Shown: positions 3,263 to 39,721 of the stretch, piece by piece
How positions within the stretch are numbered: position 1 is the stretch's first letter
Layout of the letters: each line of letters opens with the position of its first letter
Assembly: GCA_919902675.1 (NCBI GenBank)
Contig: CAKKRH010000012.1
Coordinates: 16,178 to 80,177, forward strand
Origin: Omnitrophica bacterium GWA2_41_15
Lineage (GTDB): Bacteria; Omnitrophota; Gorgyraeia; Gygaellales; UBA12090
Reading direction: 5' to 3'
DNA length: 64,000 nt
Program-made: the position numbers and the translations under genes
Notes under the pieces: model-generated
What the model saw: the letters and a program-made list of their open reading frames with translations, nothing else
Told to the model about the DNA's origin: nothing
Database searches by the model: none

Positions 3263-3294
3263 GCTATCGGCTTTCAGCCGATAGCCGATAGCGG
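3263..3294. repeat. Hairpin plus heptamer repeat (GCCGATA family) between tRNA-Glu and glmS
   Basis: GCTATCGGC (3263-3271) pairs perfectly with GCCGATAGC (3277-3285) across a 5-nt loop. GCCGATA is then repeated in tandem (3277-3290). Confidence 0.6.
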
Positions 3295-3304
3295 AAAGCT
3301 ATAT

Positions 3305-5140
3305 ATGTGCGGAATAGTCGGTTACATCGGAAACAGATCAGCCCAAGATGTCCTTCTGGGAGGACTTAAGCGCCTGGAATACCGAGGGTATGATTCCAGC
3401 GGTATCAGCGTAATTAATTCCGATAACAGTAAAATCTCTACCCAGAAATCCCCGGGTAAGATTGTTCTTCTGGAGGGCCTTTTAAAGAAAAAGCCTCTTA
3501 GCGGAAACGTTGGCATCGCCCATAGCCGCTGGGCCACCCACGGCGCGCCCAACCATATCAACGCCCATCCCCACGCCGACTGCAAAAAAGAAATAACCAT
3601 AGTCCATAACGGAATCATTGAAAATTACGAATCCTTAAAAACCGGCCTGATCAAAGAAGGACACCATTTCTTAAGCCAGACGGATACTGAAGCCATTGTT
3701 CACCTTATAGAAAAATTCTATAAAAACGGCGCTTCTTTGGAAGAGGCCGTGCGTAAAAGCCTAAGGCTTTTAGCCGGTTCGTTTGCCATCGGGGTTATTT
3801 CGGCCCGCGAACCGGATAAGCTCATCGGAGCGCGCTTAGGCAGCCCTTTGATAATAGGCGTTGGTAAGGATGAGAATTTTCTGGCCTCGGATGTGCCGGC
3901 AGTGTTGGGGTCTACCAAAGAGGTAGTTTTCCTGGAAGAAAACGAGATGGCGGTATTGAGTAAGGATGGCGTAAGGATCAGCAATTTAGACGGCAAGGAA
4001 GTTTCCCGGAAACCGGTGCATATCAGCTGGGATATCGCCCAGGCTCAAAAGCAGGGATATAAGCATTTTATGCTTAAAGAAATCAACGAACAACCCAGGA
4101 TTGCGGAGGATCTGCTTAAACTGCGGATAAAAGACAAAAGGGTAATTTTTGACGAACAAAAGATCCCGGAAGCCAAATTAAAAGCGGTCAAAAACATTTT
4201 TATTGTTGCCTGCGGCACCGCGTATCACGCCGGCATGGTAGGAAAATATATTATAGAATCCATATGTTCTATTCCGGTAAGCGTGGATGTCTCCAGCGAA
4301 TTTCGTTATCGCAATCTCCTGTTAAATAAGGATACCCTGGTAATCGCGGTAAGCCAGTCCGGGGAGACCGCCGATACCCTGGCCGGAATTAAAGAGGCCA
4401 AGAAATACGGGGTACAGGTGCTTTCTATCTGCAACGTCTTAGGCTCAAGCCTTACCCGGGAGTCCGACGGTGTTATCTATACCCACGCCGGCCCGGAGAT
4501 GGGAGTGGCCTCCACCAAGGCCTATACCGCCCAGCTAATGGCTTTTTATTTCCTAGCCTTTTATCTGGCTGAATTAAAAGGGGTTATGCCGCGGGAAAAA
4601 ATAGCTCAGGCCTTGTCAGAGCTAAAAAAGATTCCCTATCAGCAAAAGGATATTTTAAAAGGCCAGGCCGCGATTGCCATCCTGGCCAGGCGCCATTCCC
4701 ATCTGGGGTCATTTTTATACCTGGGAAGGAATGTGAATTTCCCTTCGGCCCTGGAAGGAGCCTTAAAACTGAAAGAGATTTCTTATATCCCGGCCGAAGG
4801 CTATGCCGCCGGCGAGATGAAGCACGGCCCGATTGCCTTGATTGACGAATATCGGGCGGTGGTCTGTATTTGTCCGCAGTCGCACGTCTACGAAAAAATG
4901 GTTTCCAATCTTCAGGAAATCCGGGCCCGGCGCGGTAAAATCATCGCTATTGCCAGCGCGGGTGATAAAAAAATCAAAGAACAAGTCAAAGAGATAATCT
5001 ATATCCCGCTATGTTCGGAGATTTTTTCTCCGCTCCTGGTAGTCCTGCCCCTGCAACTTATTGCCTACCATATCGCGGTCAAAAGAGGCTGTGATGTGGA
5101 CCAACCCCGTAACCTGGCCAAGAGCGTCACGGTAGAGTAA
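3305..5140 (+). CDS. glmS: Glutamine--fructose-6-phosphate aminotransferase
   Basis: Starts MCGIVGYIG (N-terminal Cys nucleophile). It has two SIS-domain regions and the canonical C-terminus DQPRNLAKSVTVE. Length 611 aa. Confidence 0.97.
   Translation: MCGIVGYIGNRSAQDVLLGGLKRLEYRGYDSSGISVINSDNSKISTQKSPGKIVLLEGLLKKKPLSGNVGIAHSRWATHGAPNHINAHPHADCKKEITIVHNGIIENYESLKTGLIKEGHHFLSQTDTEAIVHLIEKFYKNGASLEEAVRKSLRLLAGSFAIGVISAREPDKLIGARLGSPLIIGVGKDENFLASDVPAVLGSTKEVVFLEENEMAVLSKDGVRISNLDGKEVSRKPVHISWDIAQAQKQGYKHFMLKEINEQPRIAEDLLKLRIKDKRVIFDEQKIPEAKLKAVKNIFIVACGTAYHAGMVGKYIIESICSIPVSVDVSSEFRYRNLLLNKDTLVIAVSQSGETADTLAGIKEAKKYGVQVLSICNVLGSSLTRESDGVIYTHAGPEMGVASTKAYTAQLMAFYFLAFYLAELKGVMPREKIAQALSELKKIPYQQKDILKGQAAIAILARRHSHLGSFLYLGRNVNFPSALEGALKLKEISYIPAEGYAAGEMKHGPIALIDEYRAVVCICPQSHVYEKMVSNLQEIRARRGKIIAIASAGDKKIKEQVKEIIYIPLCSEIFSPLLVVLPLQLIAYHIAVKRGCDVDQPRNLAKSVTVE
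5101..5140 (+). repeat. Direct repeat copy 1 (the functional glmS 3' end)
   Basis: CCAACCCCGTAACCTGGCCAAGAGCGTCACGGTAGAGTAA recurs at 6557-6596 with 3 substitutions. Confidence 0.9.
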
Positions 5141-5223: not shown

Positions 5224-6546
5224 ATGGAAAAAAGTGAAATAATAGAGAGCCTTTTGGCCTGGAATTTTTGGCAAAAAGGCCTTGATACCGGGATAAGCCG
5301 CGGGCCGTATTTAGAACAAATCCGCCGTTATTTAAAGACTGATGAGGTTGTTGCTCTTTCTGGGATCCGGCGCTGCGGAAAGAGCACCATTCTCCTGCAA
5401 GTCCTGTCCGAGCTGATAAATAACGGCCTGCCGAAGCAAAATACCCTATACATCAATTTTGAGGACCCCAAATTTTTCAATTTTTTAGGGCTGGATTTGT
5501 TGGATAAGATATGGCGGGCTTATCAGGAATATCTGAAGCCGCGGGGCAAGGTATATCTGGTGCTGGATGAGGTGCAGAAGGTAAAGGGATGGGAGCATTG
5601 GGTCAGGGCCAAATACGACCAGAAGGAAAGCGTTAAAATCTTTGTTACCGGCTCAAATGCCGAATTGCTCTCCGCGGAGTTTTCCAGCGTCCTCACCGGC
5701 AGGCATTTAGAGCTGGCGGTGGCGCCTTTAAATTTCAGGGAATACCTGGGGTTTAGAGGGGTGAAGATAGAGAACAATAAGCTTTGGATGGTAGAAAGCC
5801 GAGATCTTCTTTATGGTCACGCCCTGGAGTATCTGCGGATCGGCGGCTTTCCCAAGATAGTCCTCACCGGGGATGAATTACTGCGTAAGGAATTGCTCGA
5901 GCAGTATTTTAACGATATTCTGACCAAGGATATCCGGGACAGGTATAAACTGAAAGAGGCGGGTAAATTAAAGAACCTGGCCTTGTTTTTTGCCGCCAAT
6001 TTCACCCGGCCCTATACCTTCCGTAAGGTCAAGTCCTTGTCCGAAATTCCCTTATCCCTGGATACTGTCCACCGTTTTTCCCATTACTTGGAAAATTCTT
6101 TCATTGTGGATTTTTTAAGCCGCTTTTCCTATTCGCTTAAGAACCGGATGCAGACCGCCCGCAAGGTTTACTTTGTGGATAACGGCCTGCGCAATGCGGT
6201 GGCCTTTAAATTCTCTTCGGATACGGGTAAACTTCTAGAAAACGCCGTTTTTCATCATTTAAAGCAGCAAAAAAAGGAAATTTATTATTACCAGGAAAAG
6301 CAAGAGGTGGATTTTGTTATTAAAGAAGGTTTGAAAATTACCGGACTTATCAATGTGTCAAACAATATTGAGGACAAAGAGACATATTTAAGGGAAACTG
6401 CCTCCTTAAAAGAGGGAATGAGATATTTTAAGCGGAAAGATGCAACGCTAATCACCCTTGAAGGCAAGGCCAAAACCATTAGCGACGAAGGCTTTACTAT
6501 CCTAACAGTTCCTTTTTATCAATGGGCGATAGCAGATTTGCCTTAA
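5224..6546 (+). CDS. AAA+ ATPase with C-terminal DUF4143-type domain (COG1373-like)
   Basis: Walker A GIRRCGKST, Walker B LVLDEVQKV, then VTGSNAELL. Overall layout is typical of AAA_14 + DUF4143 proteins. 440 aa. Confidence 0.8.
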   Translation: MEKSEIIESLLAWNFWQKGLDTGISRGPYLEQIRRYLKTDEVVALSGIRRCGKSTILLQVLSELINNGLPKQNTLYINFEDPKFFNFLGLDLLDKIWRAYQEYLKPRGKVYLVLDEVQKVKGWEHWVRAKYDQKESVKIFVTGSNAELLSAEFSSVLTGRHLELAVAPLNFREYLGFRGVKIENNKLWMVESRDLLYGHALEYLRIGGFPKIVLTGDELLRKELLEQYFNDILTKDIRDRYKLKEAGKLKNLALFFAANFTRPYTFRKVKSLSEIPLSLDTVHRFSHYLENSFIVDFLSRFSYSLKNRMQTARKVYFVDNGLRNAVAFKFSSDTGKLLENAVFHHLKQQKKEIYYYQEKQEVDFVIKEGLKITGLINVSNNIEDKETYLRETASLKEGMRYFKRKDATLITLEGKAKTISDEGFTILTVPFYQWAIADLP

Positions 6547-25014: not shown

Positions 25015-25043
25015 AAAGCAGAGTAAAGAGGTAAGAGTAAAGA
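25015..25043. repeat. Left inverted arm of four-helix-bundle cassette 2
   Basis: AAAGCAGAGTAAAGAGGTAAGAGTAAAGA starts 3 nt after tRNA-Val and runs into the ATG. Confidence 0.85.
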
Positions 25044-25408
25044 TGAGTGCGGATGAGCCTCGGTATAGAAGGTTGCTGATATGGAAAAAAGCGCATAATA
25101 ACGCGATTATCTTGATAACGTTAATAAAAAACTGCAACTCGAAATACGGCCGCGTTATAGATCAATGTCTTGGCAGTGTTACCTCAATAGGCGCGAATAT
25201 CGCGGAAGGTAATGAATCCGCGACACATAAACAAAAAGAAAGCTATTTCCAGATTTCCCTGAATTCGGCATACGAATTGGATAACTGGCTGCAAATATTA
25301 AAAGACGGAGAAATAATTACCGACAAAGAAAAAATAGCAGTGATAGAAAAAGAAAACATTGAAGTAATCAAAATTTTGTGTACAATAATTAAATCCCTTA
25401 GGTTTTGA
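25043..25408 (+). CDS. Four-helix-bundle protein (23S rRNA intervening-sequence protein / Avd family)
   Basis: 121 aa. LLIWKKAHN...SIGANIAEGNES..HKQKESYFQISLNSAYELDNWL fits the family signature. The ORF is AT-rich. Confidence 0.8.
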   Translation: MSADEPRYRRLLIWKKAHNNAIILITLIKNCNSKYGRVIDQCLGSVTSIGANIAEGNESATHKQKESYFQISLNSAYELDNWLQILKDGEIITDKEKIAVIEKENIEVIKILCTIIKSLRF

Positions 25409-25412
25409 TTTT

Positions 25413-25448
25413 TCTTTACTCTTACCTCTTTACTCTTAATTCTGCTTT
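25413..25448. repeat. Right inverted arm of cassette 2
   Basis: TCTTTACTCTTACCTCTTTACTCT (25413-25436) is the perfect reverse complement of 24 nt of the left arm. After a 5-nt insertion, CTGCTTT completes the match. The arm ends 3 nt before tRNA-Asp. Confidence 0.9.
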
Positions 25449-32766: not shown

Positions 32767-34200
32767 ATGCCATATTTAACCTGGAAATCCTTTGGCTGGA
32801 AGATGGGTGCCTGGCCAATCTTTGAGGCAATTAAGGGTAAGCAAAATGTATTTTTTTTAGACAGCTCTCTGCGCCGTCCGGCCTTAGGCCGTTATTCCTT
32901 TTTAGGCTTTGAGCCGTTTTATATCTTTAAGGCTAAAGGCCAAAAAGATTCTCTTGATCAGTTAAGAGGTTTGCTTAGGTGCTACAGGTTAGCAAATACC
33001 AAATTTCCTTTTTTAGGCGGGGCAGTCGGCTATTTGGCTTATGATTTCGGATTAAGCTTAGAGAATATTAAGGAAAAAACCAAAGATGATCTGGGTTTGC
33101 CGGATGTGTTTTTTGGATTTTACGATACCATAATCGCCATTGACCATTGGCAGAGAAAACTGACTGTTTTTTCCACCGGTTTTCCCGAAAAAAGCTCTTT
33201 CTTAGCCAAAAAACGCTCAGAGCAGAGATTAAAACAGTTTATTCAGGAGTTGTCTAACCAAGGCCGTCATTCAAGTTGTGTTACGATGTCATTGCGAGTA
33301 GCCGCAGGCGATGCGGCAATCTCAAAAACGGGTTTGCTTCACCCCTTCGGGGTTCGCAATGACAAATTAGCAGTTAAGCCCGTATCTAATTTCACCAAAG
33401 AGAAATATTTAAAAGCAGTTACCAAAGCCAAGGATTACATAAAAAAAGGCGACATCTATCAGGTTAATCTTTCCCAGAGATTCAGCGCGCAAACCCCTTT
33501 AAGCAGTTTTGACTTATATCAGAAACTGCGTCAGGCTTCACCCAGCGATTTCTCAGCTTACCTTGACTGCGGAGATTTTCAGATTATCAGCTCTTCTCCG
33601 GAGAGATTTCTTAATTTTGACGGGAAAAAGGTTTCCACCCGGCCGATGAAGGGGACCAGGCCGCGGGGAACAAATCCCCGGGCTGACGCGCGCCATAAGC
33701 GGGATTTGCTTCAAAGTCCCAAAGATAAGGCCGAATTGCTGATGATTGTGGATTTACTGCGCAATGACCTGGGCCGGGTCTGTAAATACGGCTCAATCAA
33801 AGTCAGCTCACCGCGCGCCCTGGAGGCCTATTCTACGGTTTATCAGACCACCGCCTCTATTGAAGGAATTTTGCATCCGGAAAAAGACCGCCTTGACCTG
33901 CTCAAGGCCTGTTTTCCCGGAGGCTCAATAACTGGATGCCCCAAAATCCGCTCAATGCAAATAATTGAGGAGTTAGAGCCGAGCCGCAGGGCAATTTATA
34001 CCGGCTCGCTGGGGTATCTTAGTTTTAATAACACCCTGGATTTGAATATCTTAATCCGCACAATTTTAAAAAAAAGTGATAAAATATACTTTCAAACCGG
34101 CGGCGGAATCGTGGCCGACTCCCAAGCCGAGAATGAATACCAGGAAACTCTGATCAAAACCCAAGGCATCTTCCGGGCGTTAAATGGCGAGAGCGCGTAA
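32767..34200 (+). CDS. pabB: Aminodeoxychorismate synthase component I (chorismate-binding enzyme)
   Basis: Chorismate-binding motifs SSPERFL, RPMKGTRPRG, PGGSITGCPK and IYTGSLGY. The operon partner pabC lies downstream. It carries an in-frame palindromic insert. Confidence 0.85.
   Translation: MPYLTWKSFGWKMGAWPIFEAIKGKQNVFFLDSSLRRPALGRYSFLGFEPFYIFKAKGQKDSLDQLRGLLRCYRLANTKFPFLGGAVGYLAYDFGLSLENIKEKTKDDLGLPDVFFGFYDTIIAIDHWQRKLTVFSTGFPEKSSFLAKKRSEQRLKQFIQELSNQGRHSSCVTMSLRVAAGDAAISKTGLLHPFGVRNDKLAVKPVSNFTKEKYLKAVTKAKDYIKKGDIYQVNLSQRFSAQTPLSSFDLYQKLRQASPSDFSAYLDCGDFQIISSSPERFLNFDGKKVSTRPMKGTRPRGTNPRADARHKRDLLQSPKDKAELLMIVDLLRNDLGRVCKYGSIKVSSPRALEAYSTVYQTTASIEGILHPEKDRLDLLKACFPGGSITGCPKIRSMQIIEELEPSRRAIYTGSLGYLSFNNTLDLNILIRTILKKSDKIYFQTGGGIVADSQAENEYQETLIKTQGIFRALNGESA
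33288..33363. mobile_element. 76-bp palindromic MITE-like element translated in frame within pabB
   Basis: Terminal inverted repeats GTCATTGCGA / TCGCAATGAC. Internal hairpins GCCGCA-GGCGA-TGCGGC and CCCC-TTCG-GGGG. Translated as SLRVAAGDAAISKTGLLHPFGVRND. Confidence 0.7.
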
Positions 34201-34219
34201 TAAAGAGAAACGAATTTTG

Positions 34220-34248
34220 TTGACAAGCAATCCATTTTCGGCGATAAT
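34220..34248 (+). promoter_or_regulatory. Near-consensus sigma70-type promoter, possibly giving a leaderless mRNA
   Basis: TTGACA (34220-34225), 17-nt spacer, GATAAT (34243-34248). The ATG at 34256 is only 7 nt downstream of the -10 element and has no RBS. Confidence 0.6.
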
Positions 34249-34255
34249 GTAAAGT

Positions 34256-35461
34256 ATGAAATACATTCACAGATTCCTGGAAGAAAGAATACGCCATACA
34301 TTTAAGCGGGGTAAGAGCGTTCTTTTGCTTGGTGCGCGCCAAACCGGTAAAACTACGCTCATCAGCCGGTTTAAGCATGATTTGCTGGTTTCGTTTGTGC
34401 CGCCGGATATAAGACAGCAGTATGAAAAATCCCCCCATTTATTAAAAGGAGAAGTGGAGGCCTTGGCGGCCGCGCAAACGGGAAAGCGCCCGCTGATTAT
34501 CCTGGATGAGGTTCAGAAGGTTCCGGTTATCTTGGATGTTGTTCAGGACCTGATTGACCGGGGAAAAGCTAATTTTATACTTACGGGCTCAAGCGCCCGT
34601 AAGCTTCGCCGGGGTGCCCAGGTAAACCTCCTTCCCGGACGCGTTGTTGCCTTTAAGATGGACCCGTTTAGTTTGAGGGAATTTCCCGCGAAGGATCTCA
34701 ATGAACGGCTTCTTTACGGTTCATTGCCCGGCATTCTCTCGGTCCCGTCGTTAGCAGACAGGGAGGCCGATTTAGAATCGTATGTAACGACTTATTTGGA
34801 AGAAGAAGTGCGAGCTGAAGCCGTGGTGCGCAATCTGGGGGATTTTGCGAGGTTTTTAGAGCTCGCCGCATCCGAATCCGGAGGAATTATAAATTTAAGA
34901 AAACTGTCGCAGGAGATTGGCGTTTCTCACACGACTATTGGGGCTTATTATCAAATATTGGAGGATTGCCTTATTGCCGAGCGGATAGAACCGTTAACCA
35001 TAAGCAAAACCAGAAAAAAACTTACCAAGTCCGAGAAATATCTTTTTTTTGATTTAGGGGTCAGGAGGCTTGCCGCTCGGGAAGGAACAAGGCTTTCCCG
35101 CGACGCGATGGGGCGGATTTTTGAACAGTTTGTCGGCCTTGAACTCTTAAGATCAGCGCATACAAAAGGCCGGGGGATAAAGATTAGGTTCTGGCGCGAC
35201 CCGGACGGCCCGGAAGTGGATTGGATTATAGACAAGGACGGCGCGTATACTCCCATAGAAGTTAAGTTGACCGCGAGCCCCGGCATATGCGATATACGGC
35301 ATTTGGAGGTTTTCTTATCCGAGTATAAAACCGCGAAACATGGTTTTTTGGTCTGTCAGGTTTCGCGCAAGCTTAAGCTAAGCGAAAGAGTCTTTGCCTT
35401 GCCCTGGCATGAAATCAGCGAAGTCCTTGGAAAAGGGAAAAAGGGGACGCTTCTATTTTAA
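34256..35461 (+). CDS. AAA+ ATPase with C-terminal DUF4143-type domain (second, divergent paralogue)
   Basis: Walker A GARQTGKTT, Walker B IILDEVQKV, then LTGSSARKL. 401 aa. The last 7 codons lie in the 19-bp inverted repeat. Confidence 0.8.
   Translation: MKYIHRFLEERIRHTFKRGKSVLLLGARQTGKTTLISRFKHDLLVSFVPPDIRQQYEKSPHLLKGEVEALAAAQTGKRPLIILDEVQKVPVILDVVQDLIDRGKANFILTGSSARKLRRGAQVNLLPGRVVAFKMDPFSLREFPAKDLNERLLYGSLPGILSVPSLADREADLESYVTTYLEEEVRAEAVVRNLGDFARFLELAASESGGIINLRKLSQEIGVSHTTIGAYYQILEDCLIAERIEPLTISKTRKKLTKSEKYLFFDLGVRRLAAREGTRLSRDAMGRIFEQFVGLELLRSAHTKGRGIKIRFWRDPDGPEVDWIIDKDGAYTPIEVKLTASPGICDIRHLEVFLSEYKTAKHGFLVCQVSRKLKLSERVFALPWHEISEVLGKGKKGTLLF
35440..35458. repeat. Left 19-bp inverted repeat bracketing the RAYT-like gene
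   Basis: AAAGGGGACGCTTCTATTT is the perfect reverse complement of 36157-36175. Confidence 0.9.
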
Positions 35462-35496
35462 TTGACACGAAGAATGTTCTGTGATATTTTCAGTCT

Positions 35497-36162
35497 ATGC
35501 CAAGAATATTTAGGTTTCTTCCTGAAATAGGTGTCTTCCATATTCTGACTAGAGGTAATAATCGTCAAAAAGTATTTAGAGACGATAAGGATTATCAGTT
35601 TTATCTTGAGCTCTTACAGCGTTATAAAGAGGAACATAACTTTTTGCTGTATCATTATTGTCTCATGCCAAATCATGTCCACCTTATTTTAGAGACTACT
35701 CGCCAGACAGACCTCTCCAAGTTAATGAAGCAAATCAACCTGAAATATCATTATTATTTTAGAAGAAGGTATAGATACTGTGGTCATCTCTGGCAAGGAA
35801 GGTTCAAGAGCCTGCTTATTGAAAAGGATAGCTATCTTATTGCTTGCGCTAGATACATTGAAAGAAATCCTGTAAGAGCAAAGATGGTAGAGAAGGCGGA
35901 AGATTACCGTTGGTCAAGTTACCTTTACTACGTGAATGGTAAAAATAATCCTCTTTTGGACAGGGATCCATTGTACCAAGGCTTAGGAGTGGATGATAAG
36001 AAAAGACAGGAAAGTTATCAGCTGTCTCTTGATAAAACTCATACGCCAAATTTGAATCTTAGGTTTATAGGCTCAAACCCATTTATAAAGGCAATGGAGG
36101 AAAAGTTCGGGATAAAGAACCTTAAAAGTAAGAGGGGAAGGCCGATAAAAGCAAATAAATAG
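35497..36162 (+). CDS. IS200-like / REP-associated tyrosine transposase (HUH Y1) family protein
   Basis: HUH motif in YHYCLMPNHVHLILE and a Tyr motif in ARYIERNPV. 221 aa, AT-rich relative to the flanks. Confidence 0.85.
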   Translation: MPRIFRFLPEIGVFHILTRGNNRQKVFRDDKDYQFYLELLQRYKEEHNFLLYHYCLMPNHVHLILETTRQTDLSKLMKQINLKYHYYFRRRYRYCGHLWQGRFKSLLIEKDSYLIACARYIERNPVRAKMVEKAEDYRWSSYLYYVNGKNNPLLDRDPLYQGLGVDDKKRQESYQLSLDKTHTPNLNLRFIGSNPFIKAMEEKFGIKNLKSKRGRPIKANK

Positions 36163-36175
36163 AAGCGTCCCCTTT
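36157..36175. repeat. Right 19-bp inverted repeat bracketing the RAYT-like gene
   Basis: AAATAGAAGCGTCCCCTTT overlaps the stop codon of the transposase-like ORF. Confidence 0.9.
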
Positions 36176-36211
36176 ACTACCCTTTACTACCCTTTACCTT
36201 TACCGCCCTTT
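36169..36211. repeat. Tandem repeat (CCTTTACTAC x2 plus degenerate CCTTTAC units)
   Basis: CCCCTTTACTACCCTTTACTACCCTTTACCTTTACCGCCCTTT, immediately after the right inverted repeat. Confidence 0.8.
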
Positions 36212-36241
36212 CTGTTATTCGGAGCGTAGCTGGTTTTTAAG

Positions 36242-37057
36242 ATGAAAATTTGGATTAATGGGAAATTTGTAGAGGAGGCAGAGGCCAAGGTTGACATTGT
36301 CTCAGCCGGTTTTTTATACGGCCAGGGGGTTTTTGAGACGATGCGGGCGTATAATGAGCGGGTTTTTCGCTTAGACAGCCATCTGGAGCGTTTGTTTAAG
36401 GCCCTGCCTGTGCTTAATTTGGAATTAACCTTAGGGCCCGATGTTTTGAAAAAGGCGCTTAAGCAGGCCTTGAAAGAAAATAATCTTAAAGACGCCTATT
36501 TGCGGATAACGGTCTGGCAGGGGAAAGATAAGGCTGAGGCCGCGGTTTTTGCCAAAGCCAATAATTTTTTAACCAAAGATGATTATTACAAAGGCTTTAA
36601 GGCCATAGCTTCCAGTTTCCGGCAGAATGAATTTTCAATCCTTTCCGGAATCAAGTCCGCGAACTATTTGCCCTTACTCCTGGCCTACCAGGAGGCGAAA
36701 AAGAAAAATGCCGATGAGGCCATACTTTTAAATACCCGGGATTTTCTGGCTGAGGCCTCACGGGCCAATATCTTTTTAGTTAAAGATAATTGTTTATTGA
36801 CCCCATCTTTAGACTGCGGATGTCTTCCCGGAATTACCCGGGATACGGTTTTGGGTCTGGCGGTTAAGGAAAAGATAAAGGTAATTGAGGCTAAGCTTAA
36901 GCCTGAGGATATCCAAAGAGCCGATGAGGCCTTTTTGACTAATTCCTTAATTGAGATTATGCCGCTGACAACTTTTGAGGGCCGGCCGATTAAAAAAGGA
37001 TTTCCCGGTAAAATTACCGAGTTGATTTTAAAGCGCTACCGCTTGCTATTACAATGA
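36242..37057 (+). CDS. pabC: Aminodeoxychorismate lyase (class IV aminotransferase fold)
   Basis: 271 aa. GQGVFETMR and the SGIKSANYL (catalytic Lys region) patterns of class IV PLP enzymes. Genomic pairing with pabB. Confidence 0.75.
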   Translation: MKIWINGKFVEEAEAKVDIVSAGFLYGQGVFETMRAYNERVFRLDSHLERLFKALPVLNLELTLGPDVLKKALKQALKENNLKDAYLRITVWQGKDKAEAAVFAKANNFLTKDDYYKGFKAIASSFRQNEFSILSGIKSANYLPLLLAYQEAKKKNADEAILLNTRDFLAEASRANIFLVKDNCLLTPSLDCGCLPGITRDTVLGLAVKEKIKVIEAKLKPEDIQRADEAFLTNSLIEIMPLTTFEGRPIKKGFPGKITELILKRYRLLLQ

Positions 37058-37389
37058 TAAAACATATATTGAGATTGTTGAAAAACATGGTTTTTCAACA
37101 ATCTCATCCTGAGGAGGGACGCAAGTCCCGACGAAGGATCTCATGCGGAAGTGTTCAAGATAAGCGTTCTCAGGGGTTTTGTAACGGTCTTATATTCAGG
37201 ATAAGCCTAGGGGTGGTTTTGATACTTTTAGGCGTTGCTGGGATATTTTTGCCGATTATGCCCGGGCTATTATTAATTCTTTTGGGCAGCGCGGTAATAG
37301 TAGAGAAAAACCCCAAGGTTTTATTCGGCGAGCTCGCTGAAAAGGTAAAAAGAAAGATGAGGGCTAAAGAAGATGAAAAGGCTCGTTAA
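37054..37389 (+). CDS. Small membrane protein (two predicted TM helices, PGPGW-like motif region)
   Basis: ATGA-coupled to pabC. C-terminal LGVVLILLGVAGIFLPIMPGLLLILLGSAVI. The N-terminal ~30 aa are encoded by a palindromic repeat, so the true start is uncertain. Confidence 0.5.
   Translation: MIKHILRLLKNMVFQQSHPEEGRKSRRRISCGSVQDKRSQGFCNGLIFRISLGVVLILLGVAGIFLPIMPGLLLILLGSAVIVEKNPKVLFGELAEKVKRKMRAKEDEKAR
37101..37145. repeat. Small palindromic element flanked by a 7-bp direct repeat
   Basis: ATCTCAT (37101-37107) and ATCTCAT (37138-37144) flank CCTGAGGAGGGACGCAAGTCCCGACGAAGG. The inner hairpin is GGGAC-GCAA-GTCCC. The CATCCTGAG...GAAGGATCT word is one I recall as a widespread repeat. Confidence 0.5.
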
Positions 37390-39721
37390 GCTGTGTTGTA
37401 TTATCTTAATTTTTCTCGTTGGTTGCTCCGCGGAGCTGGAGAACGCCAAACATCTGGCGGAAAAATCAAAATCCGCGTATAAGCGGTCCATAGCCGGCTA
37501 CCAAAGGCTTTTAGCTAAAAATAAGAAAAACAATGATTTACGGCTGGAATTGGCTAGGCTTTATTTGGGCCACGGAGATTACGACAGCGCTATAGCTGTT
37601 CTGCATGGCTCAGAAGGGCTAAAATCCCAGATGCTTTTGGCCGTTTCTCTGTATAAATCCGGGGACTATACTCAGGCCTTGGGCATTTTCGAAAAGTTAG
37701 GAAAAATTCAGGACGGTGAGTATTTGTATTATTACGGCTTGACCTGCAAAAAACACAATCTCTATGAGCAGGCCTTGGAGGCGTTGACCCGGATAAAAAA
37801 TAAAGAATACGCCCCCAAAGCCCAAGAACTGATTAAGTCCATCCAGGGCTCAACCCGGGAATATCCGCAAAACACCACTCCCGAGCTTAAAGAGGCGATA
37901 CTTAACTCTACCCAGGAGAAATATCCTCTGGCCGGAGCGGTAATAATCCTGGCGGATGAGGATATCCGGCTTTTAAAAGATGATACCGTGGTTTCACAGT
38001 CGCGGTTTATTATCAAGATATTAAACGAACGGGGCAAAAATGATTTTTCCGAGATAGTCATCGGTTACGATTCTACCTATGAAAAGGTGGAGGTCGAATA
38101 CGCCCGGACTATTCTTCCGGATGGCCAGGTGATCACGGTGGGGGAAAAAGACATACGGGATGTTTCCTTGTATCTGAATTTCCCGCTCTATTCCAATGCC
38201 CGGGCCAGGATAATTTCTATGCCGGGCCTTGTCGAGGGCTCAATCGTGGAATACAAGGTGAGGCACATAGAGAATCTGGGCTTGAGTAAAAAAGGCTTTA
38301 ATTTGGCCTATAGCCTGAAGGAAGGCCAGCCAATAGCGGACGCCAACTTTAAATTAACCGTCCCTAAGGATAAAAATCTAAAAACCAAGCTATTAAATCC
38401 CGAATACAATACAGAGAAATTTGATTTATCTCCCCTGATTACTCAAACTCGGGATGAGAAAATTTATACTTGGGCTTTTCAAAATATTCCTCAGATAGAA
38501 GTAGAACCGAATATGCCGCCGGAGGCTGAAATAAATCCGATAATTCTTGTTTCAACTTATCAATCCTGGGATGAGATTTATAAATGGTGGCAGGAATTAG
38601 CCAAAGACAGGATGTTAGCGGATAAGGCTATCAGCGAAAAGGTTACACAGCTTATCCAGGGTAAAAAAAATAAAGAGGAAATTATCCGGGCTATCTATAA
38701 CTACTGTGCCCAGGACATCCGTTATGTGGGCATAGAATACGGCCAGGCCGGATACCAGCCGCATTATGCCGGGGAAATATTTAAAAACAAATACGGCGAC
38801 TGCAAGGATAAGGCCATACTTTTTATTGCCATGCTCAAATCCGCCGGATTTAGCGCTTATCCGGTTTTAATCGGCACCCGGGGCAATCCGGCACCACAGG
38901 ATGACATCCCAGCGGATATCTTTAACCATTGCATCGCCGCGGTAGAGTTAGACGGTAGATTGATTTTCCTGGATATTACTGCCGAGGTTTGTTCTTTTGG
39001 GGATCTGCCGGCAGGTGATCAACAAAGGCGGGTTTTGGTCTTTAGGGAGGATAGATATGAAATAGTCGAAACTCCGTTATTGAGCCCTCAGCAGAATCGG
39101 ATTAACTACCTTACCCGGATGAATATTGCCAAAGACGAATCTGTTTTCGCCCAAAGGCAGGTTGATAGTCGGGGAGAGTTTGACCAGGCCCAGCGCTATT
39201 GGCTTAGATATACCCAGCCGGATTTGATTGAGCAGGGTTTAAAGGAAAGGGTTCAGTCTATGGTGGTTTCCGGGGATTTAATCAAGTATAATTATGAAAA
39301 CGCCGATGACTTGAATATCCCAATCAGGCTGACCTATGAATTCCAGGGAAAGAATTTTCTCTGGCGTTCCGGACGGGCCAGGATAATGCCGCCTCTGGCC
39401 GCGATGGATGCCTCTATAGCGGCTAAAAGCGCGCGGGTGTATCCTTTGGAATTGGGCCAGCCGCACAGTAAGGAATCTGTTCTTGAGATTAAGTTAGAGA
39501 AGAATTTTATTCTCAAGTATCTTCCGGAAAAGGTGGATGTCAAAAGCCCCTGGTTAGATTATTTAGTTAGCTATGAGTTTAAGGGCCAGGTTTTAAAGGT
39601 CTCTCAAAAGGAAACCTTAAAATTAAGGGAGGTCAGCCGGCAAGAATATCCGGAGTTTAAAAGGTTTTTAGAGGATTTGGCCGGTAAATTAAAGGAGTAT
39701 ATAATCTTAGAGAAAAAATAA
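37373..39721 (+). CDS. Lipoprotein with TPR region, DUF3857-like domain and transglutaminase-like cysteine protease core
   Basis: Lipobox LVGC. The transglutaminase core YGDCKDKAILFIAMLKSAG has downstream His/Asp residues. 782 aa. Confidence 0.75.
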   Translation: MKRLVKLCCIILIFLVGCSAELENAKHLAEKSKSAYKRSIAGYQRLLAKNKKNNDLRLELARLYLGHGDYDSAIAVLHGSEGLKSQMLLAVSLYKSGDYTQALGIFEKLGKIQDGEYLYYYGLTCKKHNLYEQALEALTRIKNKEYAPKAQELIKSIQGSTREYPQNTTPELKEAILNSTQEKYPLAGAVIILADEDIRLLKDDTVVSQSRFIIKILNERGKNDFSEIVIGYDSTYEKVEVEYARTILPDGQVITVGEKDIRDVSLYLNFPLYSNARARIISMPGLVEGSIVEYKVRHIENLGLSKKGFNLAYSLKEGQPIADANFKLTVPKDKNLKTKLLNPEYNTEKFDLSPLITQTRDEKIYTWAFQNIPQIEVEPNMPPEAEINPIILVSTYQSWDEIYKWWQELAKDRMLADKAISEKVTQLIQGKKNKEEIIRAIYNYCAQDIRYVGIEYGQAGYQPHYAGEIFKNKYGDCKDKAILFIAMLKSAGFSAYPVLIGTRGNPAPQDDIPADIFNHCIAAVELDGRLIFLDITAEVCSFGDLPAGDQQRRVLVFREDRYEIVETPLLSPQQNRINYLTRMNIAKDESVFAQRQVDSRGEFDQAQRYWLRYTQPDLIEQGLKERVQSMVVSGDLIKYNYENADDLNIPIRLTYEFQGKNFLWRSGRARIMPPLAAMDASIAAKSARVYPLELGQPHSKESVLEIKLEKNFILKYLPEKVDVKSPWLDYLVSYEFKGQVLKVSQKETLKLREVSRQEYPEFKRFLEDLAGKLKEYIILEKK

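What the first reader, a model, noticed from the sequence alone, without database searches (positions are those of the whole stretch)
34201..36241. A 2-kb insertion splits pabB from pabC: leaderless AAA+/DUF4143 ATPase plus a RAYT-like HUH gene bracketed by perfect 19-bp inverted repeats
**Seen directly.**
- pabB and pabC are normally adjacent partners. Here they are separated by an ATPase gene with its own near-consensus promoter and by an AT-rich IS200-like/RAYT-like gene with the HVHLIL HUH motif.
- AAAGGGGACGCTTCTATTT (35440-35458) and its exact reverse complement (36157-36175) bracket the RAYT gene.
- The left repeat encodes the last residues of the ATPase. The right repeat overlaps the RAYT stop and is followed by a CCTTTACTAC tandem repeat.

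**Established knowledge.** RAYTs are single-copy domesticated Y1 transposases flanked by inverted REP-type hairpin sequences.

**Inference.** This is a RAYT with its cognate repeats, and it is a candidate mobiliser of some of the palindromic or array elements in this genome. This is also the second DUF4143 ATPase found at an insertion junction in the window.
Basis: partly seen in the sequence, partly recalled or inferred. Interest (0 to 1): 0.6.

Follow-up and report, generated by a model that had tools for sequence, protein, structure and literature searches.

The report
Tyrosine-transposase gene with terminal inverted repeats
The gene between pabB and pabC is a "TIRtron", a RAYT-related tyrosine-transposase gene boxed in by 19-bp terminal inverted repeats, of a type first described in 2013; it sits next to a separate selfish ATPase gene in a spot where relatives carry other cargo or nothing, so it is real but essentially ordinary.

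Summary
A perfect 19-bp inverted repeat (35440-35458 / 36157-36175) brackets a 221-aa HUH/Y1 gene. It overlaps the last six codons of the DUF4143 ATPase gene on the left and the Y1 stop codon on the right. Relatives have pabB and pabC abutting, so the ~2 kb block really is inserted.

The protein belongs to the RAYT class, not to IS200. However, it is the TIRYT / Group 1 / subclass 2.1 type, whose genes are flanked by terminal inverted repeats carrying a GGGGWSAS-like tip (here GGGGACGC), not by REP hairpins.

The exact 19-mer occurs in 91 stretches of species-representative genomes from more than ten phyla. There it brackets homologous genes, forms gene-less hairpin doublets (42, all tips outward), forms tandem arrays, or stands alone.

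Inside this 64-kb window there are only the two copies. The claim that this gene mobilises the window's other palindromes is therefore unsupported.

The insertion is a composite of two independent modules:
- a highly conserved 1.2-kb ATPase cassette, found in unrelated contexts elsewhere;
- the 736-bp TIRtron.

The pabB-pabC junction is a hotspot: close relatives carry a BrnT cassette or a Schlafen-like gene there. Verdict: a new member of a known kind, of modest interest.

The parts
32767..34200 (+). pabB (aminodeoxychorismate synthase component I), the left host flank of the insertion.
   Evidence: TIGR00553 scores 346.1 against a cutoff of 328.4. Pfam finds Chorismate_bind and Anth_synt_I_N. 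Homology to relatives L099 and L101 ends at 34193 and 34182.
34212..35429 (+). DUF4143 ATPase cassette: its own conserved promoter, an ATG 7 nt after the -10 box, and the conserved part of the ORF. It is an independent selfish module.
   Evidence: Pfam finds AAA_14 and DUF4143. More than 100 clusters are 79-91% identical, typically 391 aa long. Homology to L122 covers exactly 34212-35429, in a different context. The upstream 45 nt are conserved in L117, L120 and L122.
34220..34248 (+). Promoter-like site TTGACA-17-GATAAT of the ATPase cassette. It ends 7 nt before the ATG at 34256, so a leaderless transcript is inferred.
   Evidence: It matches 11 of 12 consensus positions. It is conserved in cassette copies from other genomes.
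35430..35461 (+). Non-homologous 3' tail of the ATPase ORF (GKGKKGTLLF, then stop). It is read through a tip-like GAAAAGGG and then TIR-L.
   Evidence: Homologues end at ...WQSIxEI(L/F), about 10 residues earlier.
35440..35458 (+). Left terminal inverted repeat (TIR-L), AAAGGGGACGCTTCTATTT, with the GGGGACGC tip motif on the outer side.
   Evidence: establish the repeat in the window. The same 19-mer (17-19 of 19 positions identical) flanks homologues that are 54-67% identical. It occurs in 91 genome stretches.
35462..35490 (+). Promoter-like site TTGACA-17-TATTTT, directly abutting TIR-L. The ATG follows 6 nt later.
   Evidence: One search reports the site. A TTGACA immediately inside TIR-L recurs in L103, L104, L107, L109 and L017.
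35497..36162 (+). TIRYT gene: a 221-aa HUH/Y1 enzyme with H60, H62, WQ at 99-100, Y120 in YIERNP, WSSY and a C-terminal KRGRPIK.
   Evidence: Pfam Y1_Tnp, E = 6.9e-19. NF047646 scores above its cutoff. It aligns over its full length with published TIRYTs. The AF2 model has pLDDT 85.8 and its best structural hit is 4ER8.
36157..36175 (-). Right terminal inverted repeat (TIR-R). It supplies the gene's last codon and its stop (AAA TAG).
   Evidence: establish the repeat. The same overlap with the stop codon is seen in L016, L017, L103 and L104.
36171..36212 (+). Reiterated partial TIR tips outside TIR-R: CCTTTACTAC twice, then CCTTTAC, CTTTAC and CGCCCTTTC.
   Evidence: (family D2) and direct reading. 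Tip k-mers are enriched in the outer flanks of TIR copies generally: AAAGG occurs 35 times against 12.4 +/- 3.4 in shuffles.
36242..37057 (+). pabC-like class IV aminotransferase, the right host flank.
   Evidence: Pfam Aminotran_4. Homology to relatives resumes at 36236-36242.

Best explanation
The 2-kb block between pabB and pabC is made of two unrelated selfish modules that landed in a local insertion hotspot.

**Module 1 (34212-35429)** is a single-gene DUF4143 ATPase cassette with its own conserved promoter.

**Module 2 (35440-35458 to 36157-36175, 736 bp)** is a TIRtron. It is a gene for a TIR-associated tyrosine transposase (TIRYT; Group 1 RAYT; TnpA-Y1 subclass 2.1). It carries its own promoter directly inside the left repeat and is bounded by 19-bp terminal inverted repeats with the family's GGGG-A-C tip.

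**What is shown**
- The module boundaries.
- Intact catalytic motifs.
- Near-invariance of the repeat across phyla while the genes have diverged to about 65-70% nucleotide identity.
- An identical element in another Omnitrophota population has different flanks that diverge exactly at the repeat tips.

**What is inferred**
- The HUH/Y1 enzyme cuts and rejoins single-stranded DNA at the repeat tips when the two arms pair as a stem, for example on the lagging-strand template.
- This moves the gene-bearing unit or its gene-less hairpin doublets. The doublets are the MITE/REPIN-like form seen in other genomes.
- Binding at the left repeat, which abuts the -35 box, would also autoregulate the gene.
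- Arrival of the TIRtron at the 3' end of the ATPase gene replaced its stop codon and added about 10 codons.
For: **Identity of the protein**
- Pfam Y1_Tnp.
- NCBIfam REP_Tyr_transpos scores 82.7, above its cutoff of 80, while IS200 scores below its cutoff.
- Full-length BLASTP matches to 13 published TIRYTs (E = 1e-31 to 1e-50, 30-40% identity), most of them reaching the C-terminal tail. Canonical RAYTs match only over the core domain (E = 1e-4 to 1e-13).
- The subclass 2.1 motifs NHVH, WQ, Y..NP and SS can be read directly and compared with Table 1 of PMC6006769.
- The AF2 model's best structural hit is 4ER8.

**The repeats**
- The inverted repeat is perfect and not due to chance.
- There are no local hairpins at either end.
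- The same 19-mer brackets homologues fetched independently of the repeat.
- Distant homologues on P. aeruginosa and Iodobacter plasmids have repeats starting AAAGGGGACAG and GGGGTCAG. These fit the published GGGGWSAS motif.

**Dispersal**
- The exact 19-mer occurs in 91 genome stretches. About 4 would be expected from 2 x 596 Gb / 4^19 (my own calculation).
- Those stretches hold 125 exact copies and 184 copies with up to 2 mismatches.
- There are 42 tips-outward doublets and 0 tips-inward doublets.

**A discrete, movable unit**
- The element encoding the identical protein P0032 occurs with at least three flank combinations, which diverge at the repeat tips.

**Insertion and composite nature**
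-.
- GC content is 0.37 for the TIRtron, 0.48 for the ATPase cassette and 0.44-0.45 for the host genes.
Against: - No biochemical activity of any TIRYT on its repeats has been reported in the papers I found. The cutting mechanism is therefore an analogy with IS608/ISDra2 TnpA and E. coli TnpA-REP.
- No further copy of the repeat exists in this 64-kb window. All 9 contigs carrying the identical protein that are long enough to judge show the same context. Activity in this genome is therefore not demonstrated.
- The tip is GGGGACGC, which matches 7 of 8 positions of the published GGGGWSAS.
- No Pfam HTH domain is detectable in the C-terminal tail, unlike what is described for subclass 2.1.
- The 19-mer scan was for exact matches only, so it is biased towards conserved copies.
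Confidence: 0.8

Rival explanations
1. It is a canonical REP/REPIN-RAYT system. On this view the gene is a single-copy, domesticated RAYT, flanked by its cognate REP hairpins, which maintains a REPIN population in this genome.
For: - The NCBIfam REP-associated tyrosine transposase model scores just above its cutoff.
- The best structural match is TnpA-REP, 4ER8.
- Gene-less inverted doublets of the repeat exist in other genomes.
- The reverse complement of the right flank contains GTAG twice.
Against: - The arms are not palindromic, and neither end folds better than shuffled sequence.
- No conserved GT[AG]G foot is seen in other copies.
- The protein matches TIRYTs over its full length but canonical RAYTs only over the core.
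- No other copy of the repeat lies in the 64 kb.
- The identical 19-mer is shared across phyla, unlike lineage-specific REPs.
- An identical element occurs with different flanks.
Confidence: 0.1
2. It is an immobile, fixed gene. On this view the inverted repeats now serve only as regulatory DNA: an operator next to the -35 box on the left, and a stop codon or 3' end signal on the right. The element does not move or mobilise anything in this organism.
For: - TIR-L directly abuts a conserved TTGACA.
- TIR-R supplies the stop codon.
- Only one copy lies in the window.
- The context is the same in every contig long enough to judge.
- Group 1 RAYTs mostly behave like low-copy genes.
Against: - Contigs from three assemblies start at 35439 or end at 36180, right at the repeat edges. 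This suggests alternative junctions in the community.
- The identical P0032 element has at least 3 flank combinations.
- The repeat is dispersed without the gene in other genomes.
Confidence: 0.08
3. It is an ordinary IS200/IS605 insertion sequence.
For: - Pfam Y1_Tnp is named 'Transposase IS200 like'.
- IS608 and ISDra2 TnpA structures are the next-best structural hits.
Against: - NF033573 (IS200) scores 23.7 against a cutoff of 55.
- The tyrosine motif is YIERNP (class 2), not Y...Q.
- There are no subterminal hairpins.
- There is no tnpB gene.
- The protein is 221 aa with a conserved C-terminal tail, against about 150 aa for IS200 transposases.
Confidence: 0.02

Closest known systems
TIRtron / TIRYT (TIR-associated tyrosine transposase), Di Nocera, De Gregorio & Rocco 2013, BMC Genomics 14:522 (PMC3733652)
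   Same: - The gene is a RAYT-like Y1 gene of about 220-240 aa, flanked by terminal inverted repeats rather than REPs.
- The 3' repeat overlaps the end of the gene.
- The repeat tip is GGGG-A-C-x-C, close to GGGGWSAS.
- The repeats also occur as singles, dimers and clusters in some genomes.
- The protein aligns over its full length with pfs 148A, pca 3049, gbm 2474, dau 2153 and others, including the C-terminal ...G..F....E...G.....RGRP.K tail.
   Different: - The hosts are uncultivated Omnitrophota and neighbouring phyla, which were not in that survey.
- The seventh base of the motif is G, not A.
- The exact 19-mer is shared across more than ten phyla.
- This copy has no other repeat copies within 64 kb.
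TnpA-Y1 subclass 2.1 (Quentin, Siguier, Chandler & Fichant 2018, PMC6006769) = Group 1 RAYT (Bertels, Gallie & Rainey 2017, PMC5581495)
   Same: - It has the motifs NHVH, WQ, Y-I-E-x-N-P and SS.
- It is long (221 aa, against a median of 238).
- It has no REP hairpins nearby.
- The family has a wide, patchy taxonomic distribution.
- Homologues are rarely on plasmids: 30 of 72,556 plasmid records have one.
   Different: - No Bac_DnaA_C, HTH_23 or HTH_28 hit is found in the C-terminal tail.
- Quentin et al. reported finding no repeats near subclass 2.1 genes. Here, and in every homologue examined, clear terminal inverted repeats are present.
E. coli TnpA-REP / RAYT with REP and BIME repeats (PDB 4ER8) and REPIN-RAYT systems
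   Same: - It has the HUH/Y1 fold: Foldseek E = 1.6e-7, TM-score 0.76 on the target.
- The gene sits between inverted copies of its repeat.
- Gene-less inverted doublets form hairpins.
   Different: - Sequence similarity is marginal (phmmer E = 0.06).
- The repeat arm is not itself a palindrome.
- There is no conserved GTAG foot.
- The repeat is shared across phyla rather than being lineage-specific.
IS200/IS605 insertion sequences (IS608, ISDra2)
   Same: It has a single-domain HUH/Y1 catalytic core, and single-stranded DNA chemistry is expected.
   Different: - There are no subterminal hairpins.
- There is no tnpB gene.
- The tyrosine motif is different.
- The NCBIfam IS200 model scores below its cutoff.

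Membership tests
TIRYT / TIRtron (Di Nocera 2013) | HUH motif and catalytic tyrosine of a Y1 transposase. | tested here: met
   H60, H62 and Y120 are invariant in a 39-sequence alignment. Pfam Y1_Tnp, E = 6.9e-19.
TIRYT / TIRtron (Di Nocera 2013) | Full-length similarity to the published TIRYT proteins, including the long C-terminal tail. | tested here: met
   BLASTP against the sequences of Additional file 5 gives 13 TIRYTs at E = 1e-31 to 1e-50, mostly over about 215-230 residues. RAYTs match at E = 1e-4 to 1e-13, over the core only.
TIRYT / TIRtron (Di Nocera 2013) | The gene is flanked by terminal inverted repeats that are not REP hairpins. | tested here: met
   A 19-bp perfect inverted repeat is present. 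Neither end folds better than shuffled sequence: z = 0.06, 1.19, -0.07 and -1.49.
TIRYT / TIRtron (Di Nocera 2013) | The repeat carries the GGGGWSAS motif (a property of the majority type). | tested here: inconclusive
   This copy has GGGGACGC, which matches 7 of 8 positions. Homologues on P. aeruginosa and Iodobacter plasmids have GGGGACAG and GGGGTCAG.
TIRYT / TIRtron (Di Nocera 2013) | The repeat belongs to a repeated DNA family in the same genome (true of only some TIRtrons). | tested here: not met
   Only the two flanking copies occur in the 64-kb window. The rest of the genome was not available. In other genomes the same 19-mer is multi-copy.
TnpA-Y1 subclass 2.1 / Group 1 RAYT | Key motifs NHVH, W[EQ], Y[IV]xxNP and the proximal SS. 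| tested here: met
   PNHVHLIL, HLWQGRF, RYIERNP and RWSSY are read directly from the translation and compared with Table 1 of PMC6006769.
TnpA-Y1 subclass 2.1 / Group 1 RAYT | A C-terminal helix-turn-helix-like domain (Bac_DnaA_C, HTH_23 or HTH_28). | tested here: not met
   Pfam finds no such hit even at E <= 10. The model shows three short helices and a disordered basic RGRP end.
Canonical RAYT / REPtron (Groups 2 and 3) | Scores above the curated cutoff of the REP-associated tyrosine transposase model. | tested here: met
   NF047646 scores 82.7 bits against a cutoff of 80, which is borderline.
Canonical RAYT / REPtron (Groups 2 and 3) | Flanked by REP hairpins with a 5' GT[AG]G foot. | tested here: not met
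   There are no hairpins at the ends. The arm is not self-complementary. No GTAG is conserved across copies.
IS200/IS605 | The IS200 transposase model, the Y...Q motif, subterminal hairpins and often a tnpB gene. | tested here: not met
   NF033573 scores 23.7 against a cutoff of 55. The tyrosine motif is YIERNP. There are no hairpins. No tnpB ORF is present.

The most novel reading that the evidence does not exclude
This TIRtron lineage may not be a domesticated, vertically inherited RAYT. It may instead be an active element that moves between phyla. On this reading:
- its 19-bp ends are held almost invariant because the enzyme reads them;
- it seeds REPIN/MITE-like hairpin doublets in uncultivated groundwater and sediment lineages (Omnitrophota, Elusimicrobiota, Desantisbacteria, anammox Planctomycetota);
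- its activity leaves reiterated copies of the repeat tip (AAAGG...) outside the ends, such as the CCTTTACTAC array here. That would be a footprint recording the cleavage and joining site of a Y1 enzyme class for which no biochemistry exists.
Probability: 0.35. Interest if true: 0.5.

Novelty: new member of a known kind. Interest (0 to 1): 0.3.

Why it matters
For this finding alone, little: it puts a correct label (TIRtron/TIRYT) on a gene that would otherwise be called "IS200-like transposase" or "RAYT". It also corrects the idea that REP hairpins are involved.

Three by-products are of some use to people who study mobile DNA:

- Every homologue examined has clear terminal repeats, whereas the largest survey of the family reported finding none near subclass 2.1 genes. 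A near-invariant 19-mer shared across phyla gives a concrete substrate for the first biochemical test of a TIRYT.
- The reiterated repeat tips outside the ends point to where cutting and joining may occur.
- The pabB-pabC junction in this Omnitrophota lineage is an insertion hotspot. It holds four alternative states, which makes it a natural place to study how single-gene selfish cassettes arrive.

Tried and rejected
- **Relaxed searches for more repeat copies in the window.** Three searches found nothing beyond the two arms plus one chance-level hit:
  - the 19-mer with 3 mismatches;
  - GGGGACGCTTC with 1 mismatch;
  - AAGGGGACNNTTC with 1 mismatch.
- **Local hairpins at either end, both strands.** None folds better than shuffled sequence, so the IS200-type and REP-type end structures were rejected.
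- **Rfam scan of 33000-37500 at E <= 1.** No match.
- **Pfam on the C-terminal 79 residues at E <= 10.** No HTH domain.
- **Exact 19-mer in IMG/VR viral contigs.** No hits, so there is no sign of phage carriage.
- **Literature search for the repeat sequence itself.** Only unrelated primer-type hits. "TIRYT" or "TIRtron" appears in only two distinct works.
- **Supplementary sequences of Bertels et al. 2017.** They are not held, so the Group 1 assignment rests on the cross-reference in Quentin et al. and on motifs, not on a tree.
- **Invertible-segment idea.** Rejected. All assemblies show one orientation, and the contig ends (35439, 36180) do not match the branch points an inversion would give (35440, 36175).
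- **The GGGGTCAGACC hairpin repeat found next to pabC in relatives.** It is absent from the window.
- **The source genome.** It is not among the species-representative genomes: none of the 80 stretches shown, and no Y1-gene hit, has the window's arrangement (arms starting 717 nt apart, pabB/ATPase/pabC neighbours). Copy number in the source genome could therefore not be tested.
Full report
**1.

The region reads as four genes in a row:

| Gene | Coordinates | Evidence |
|---|---|---|
| pabB | 32767-34200 | TIGR00553 above its cutoff |
| AAA_14+DUF4143 ATPase | 34256-35461 | Pfam |
| 221-aa Y1_Tnp protein with PNHVHLIL | 35497-36162 | Pfam |
| class IV aminotransferase (pabC-like) | 36242-37057 | Pfam |

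- AAAGGGGACGCTTCTATTT (35440-35458) and its exact reverse complement (36157-36175) are a perfect 19-bp inverted repeat, 698 nt apart.
- They are the only matches in the window even with three mismatches allowed, and 0 of 100 shuffles gave two matches.
- The left arm encodes the ATPase's last six residues (KGTLLF).
- The right arm contains the Y1 gene's AAA TAG.
- CCTTTACTAC occurs twice directly after the right arm.
- Near-consensus promoter-like sites end 7 nt and 6 nt before the two ATGs. The leaderless reading is an inference.

**2. The block is inserted, and the site is a hotspot**

| Relative | pabC identity | What lies between pabB and pabC |
|---|---|---|
| L101 | 84% | nothing; the genes overlap by 17 nt |
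| context of P0136 | 70% | nothing; 10 nt apart |
| L099 / L100 | 89% | a BrnT toxin gene plus a 128-aa gene |
| L123 | 92% | pabC is preceded by a Schlafen-AlbA_2/HATPase_c_4/HTH gene |

DNA homology between the window and L099/L101 stops at 34193/34182 and resumes at 36236/36242. This matches the coordinates given in the finding.

**3. The insertion is two separate modules**

*The ATPase cassette.*
- The ATPase has more than 100 clusters that are 79-91% identical, typically 391 aa long.
- Its copies lie in unrelated neighbourhoods:
  - a defence-type island (L117);
  - between Band_7 and S4/SAICAR-synthase genes (L120);
  - after a peptidase gene (L122).
- Homology between these copies and the window covers only 34212-35429. 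That span is a conserved 45-nt promoter region plus the ORF.
- Homologues end at ...WQSIxEI(L/F). The window copy runs about 10 codons further, through a tip-like GAAAAGGG and the left repeat.
- I infer that the Y1 unit arrived at the 3' end of the ATPase gene and replaced its stop codon.

*Base composition.* GC content separates the parts: ATPase cassette 0.48, Y1 unit 0.37, pabB and pabC 0.44-0.45.

**4. What the Y1 unit is**

*Database models and structure.*
- The protein passes the NCBIfam REP-associated tyrosine transposase model (82.7 bits against a cutoff of 80). It fails the IS200 model (23.7 against 55).
- By sequence it barely sees E. coli TnpA-REP (E = 0.06).
- A confident AF2 model (pLDDT 85.8) has 4ER8 as its best structural match, ahead of the IS608 and ISDra2 TnpA structures.

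*What the literature describes.*
- Di Nocera et al. 2013 described RAYT-like genes flanked by terminal inverted repeats instead of REPs. They called them TIRtrons and TIRYTs. Many of the repeats share a GGGGWSAS motif, and some form repeat families arranged as dimers or clusters.
- Quentin et al. 2018 equate these with TnpA-Y1 subclass 2.1, which is Bertels' Group 1. Its features are the motifs NHVH, W[EQ], YIELNP and SS, a median length of 238 aa and a C-terminal extension.

*How this protein compares.*
- The window protein has NHVH, WQ, YIERNP and WSSY.
- Against the TIRYT sequences printed in Di Nocera's Additional file 5, it aligns mostly end to end with 13 of them (E = 1e-31 to 1e-50). 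The alignment includes a conserved C-terminal ...G..F....E...G.....RGRP.K tail.
- Canonical RAYTs match only over the core (E = 1e-4 to 1e-13).
- Its repeat tip GGGGACGC fits GGGGWSAS at 7 of 8 positions.
- Neither end of the unit forms a hairpin better than shuffled sequence.
- No Pfam HTH domain is found in the tail. That is the one subclass 2.1 feature not met.

The family is very large: 16,976 cluster representatives at E <= 1e-10.

**5. The repeat belongs to the gene family and is widely dispersed**

*Genome-wide scan.*
- The exact 19-mer occurs in 91 stretches of species-representative genomes.
- About 4 would be expected from 2 x 596 Gb / 4^19 (my own calculation, assuming uniform base composition).
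- By record title the hosts include:
  - Omnitrophota;
  - Elusimicrobiota;
  - Thermodesulfobacteriota;
  - Planctomycetota, including Scalindua;
  - Desantisbacteria;
  - Auribacterota;
  - Aminicenantes;
  - Firestonebacteria;
  - gammaproteobacterial MAGs.
- Some MAGs carry many copies. One Omnitrophota MAG, PPR_0461, has at least 24 exact copies.

*Arrangements in those stretches.*

| Count | What |
|---|---|
| 184 | copies with up to 2 mismatches |
| 42 | hairpin doublets, loops 8-95 nt, all with the GGGG tips outward |
| 0 | doublets with tips inward |
| 13 | direct tandems |
| 4 | gene-sized inverted pairs |
| 76 | unpaired copies |

Seven of the 91 stretches contain a recognisable Y1 gene or gene fragment.

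*Homologues fetched by protein identity, so unbiased with respect to the repeat.*
- All carry AAAGGGGACG[C/G/T]TTCTATTT at both ends (17-19 of 19 positions identical). The genes themselves are only 65-70% identical in nucleotide sequence.
- Most have a TTGACA directly inside the left repeat.
- Most have the stop codon inside the right repeat.

*More distant homologues.* Copies on P. aeruginosa and Iodobacter plasmids, 37% identical in protein, have repeats beginning AAAGGGGACAG and GGGGTCAG.

*A discrete unit.* The element encoding the identical protein P0032 appears as Fic|E|AbiEii, Fic|E|SDH-protease and ResIII|E|SDH-protease. The flanks diverge exactly at the repeat tips. The unit is therefore discrete and multi-copy or recombining in that population.

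**6. What is not supported**

- Within the window the repeat has no further copies or relaxed variants.
- The window's other palindromes are unrelated in sequence:
  - the 76-bp in-frame element in pabB;
  - the 24-bp repeats around a 23S-IVP gene.
- Nothing therefore links this gene to the "palindromic or array elements in this genome".
- The DUF4143-Y1 link looks like co-residence of two selfish cassettes, not a system.
  - The second DUF4143 gene in the window (5224-6546) is only 23% identical to this ATPase.
  - The close ATPase homologues whose loci were fetched (L117, L120, L122) have no Y1 neighbour.

**7. Mechanism**

*Shown:* the module boundaries, conserved catalytic residues, conserved ends, and variable flanks elsewhere.

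*Inferred by analogy with IS608/ISDra2 TnpA and E. coli TnpA-REP:*
- The enzyme acts on single-stranded DNA in which the two arms pair as a stem.
- It cuts at the tips and moves the unit or its gene-less doublets.
- Binding at the left arm next to the -35 box would autoregulate the gene.

No TIRYT biochemistry was found in the papers searched.

*Weak hints of activity or heterogeneity in this population:*
- Two contigs start at 35439 and one ends at 36180.
- Four third-codon-position differences are confined to 94 bp of the Y1 gene, against no more than one difference elsewhere in the 6 kb compared.
- Partial repeat tips are reiterated outside the ends. This is a general feature of the family: AAAGG occurs 35 times against 12.4 +/- 3.4 in shuffles. 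The number of tips also differs between two samples of the same site, L104 and L105.

**8. Verdict**

The feature is real and correctly described. Its label should be TIRtron/TIRYT rather than RAYT-with-REPs. It is a new member of a known kind, sitting beside an unrelated ATPase cassette in an insertion hotspot.

Noticed in passing
window 34212-35429; L117 4956-6197; L120 4956-6176; L122 2049-3266: The DUF4143 ATPase is a sharply bounded 1.2-kb single-gene cassette: a conserved TTGACA-17-GATAAT promoter, an ATG 7 nt later, and the ORF. Copies 79-91% identical occur in more than 100 Omnitrophota clusters in unrelated genomic contexts. It is far better conserved than the neighbouring housekeeping pabC. 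How it moves is unknown.
   Followed up: partly
L122 about 2010-2050 and 3290-3325: In one relative the ATPase cassette is flanked by direct repeats of about 33 bp (GGGACcAGaGTaAATTTAaGATGGcAGAAT). No such repeats flank the window copy.
   Followed up: no
window 34194-36241; L099 588-1746; L123 1-1426; L101 3004-3020: The pabB-pabC junction is an insertion hotspot with four alternative states in close relatives: ATPase plus TIRtron; BrnT toxin plus a 128-aa gene; a Schlafen-AlbA_2/HATPase_c_4/HTH gene; or empty.
   Followed up: yes
L099 about 760-820 and 1690-1745; L123 about 1375-1420: Relatives carry, next to the pabC start and around the BrnT cassette, a hairpin repeat of about 50 bp. It begins GGGGTCAGACCTCAAC and ends GTTGAGGTCTGACCCC. 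Its tip fits the TIRYT motif GGGGWSAS. It is absent from the window.
   Followed up: partly
window 33288-33363: A 76-bp palindromic element with ends GTCATTGCGA and TCGCAATGAC lies in frame in the linker between the two pabB domains. Relative L101 has an element with the same ends but a different interior at the same place. It looks like an intragenic REP/MITE-like insertion that the protein tolerates.
   Followed up: partly
window 25020-25043 / 25413-25436, ORF 25043-25408: A second gene in the window is bracketed by perfect inverted repeats. A 24-bp repeat (AGAGTAAAGAGGTAAGAGTAAAGA) surrounds a 121-aa 23S-rRNA-intervening-sequence protein gene (PF05635), which sits between two tRNA-like sequences. 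The repeat is built of GTAAAGA units that recall the GTAAAGG tips beside TIR-R.
   Followed up: partly
window 35964, 35967, 35976, 36057: The window differs from seven other assemblies of the same locus by four substitutions. All are at third codon positions, all are synonymous, and all lie within 94 bp of the Y1 gene. Elsewhere in the 6 kb compared there is no difference in L001 and only one in L005 (33821). This may be a gene-conversion patch from another copy.
   Followed up: partly
window 35439 and 36180 (L004, L006, L005): Contigs from three independent assemblies start at 35439, 1 nt outside TIR-L, or end at 36180, 5 nt outside TIR-R. Assembly-graph branches at the element's edges imply that the same sequence occurs with other flanks in those communities. 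L059, a contig binned as Firestonebacteria from the same site, shares 33 nt with the window (35436-35468).
   Followed up: partly
window 35430-35437 and 36171-36212; L104/L105 3925-3945; L012, L019, L033: Short reiterated copies of the repeat tip (AAAGG, GTAAAGG) lie just outside many TIR copies. The number of copies differs between two samples of the same site (L104 and L105).
   Followed up: partly
L013 (Candidatus Scalindua arabica contig, 7.7 kb): The contig carries six exact TIR copies with a 1028-bp period. Only the first 44 and last 37 codons of the Y1 gene are detectable between close pairs. These may be tandem, internally deleted units, but part of the locus is masked.
   Followed up: no
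window 37070-37106: A perfect 17-bp palindrome with a 3-nt loop (TGAGATTGTTGAAAAAC / GTTTTTCAACAATCTCA) lies just after the pabC stop, inside the start of the next ORF.
   Followed up: no
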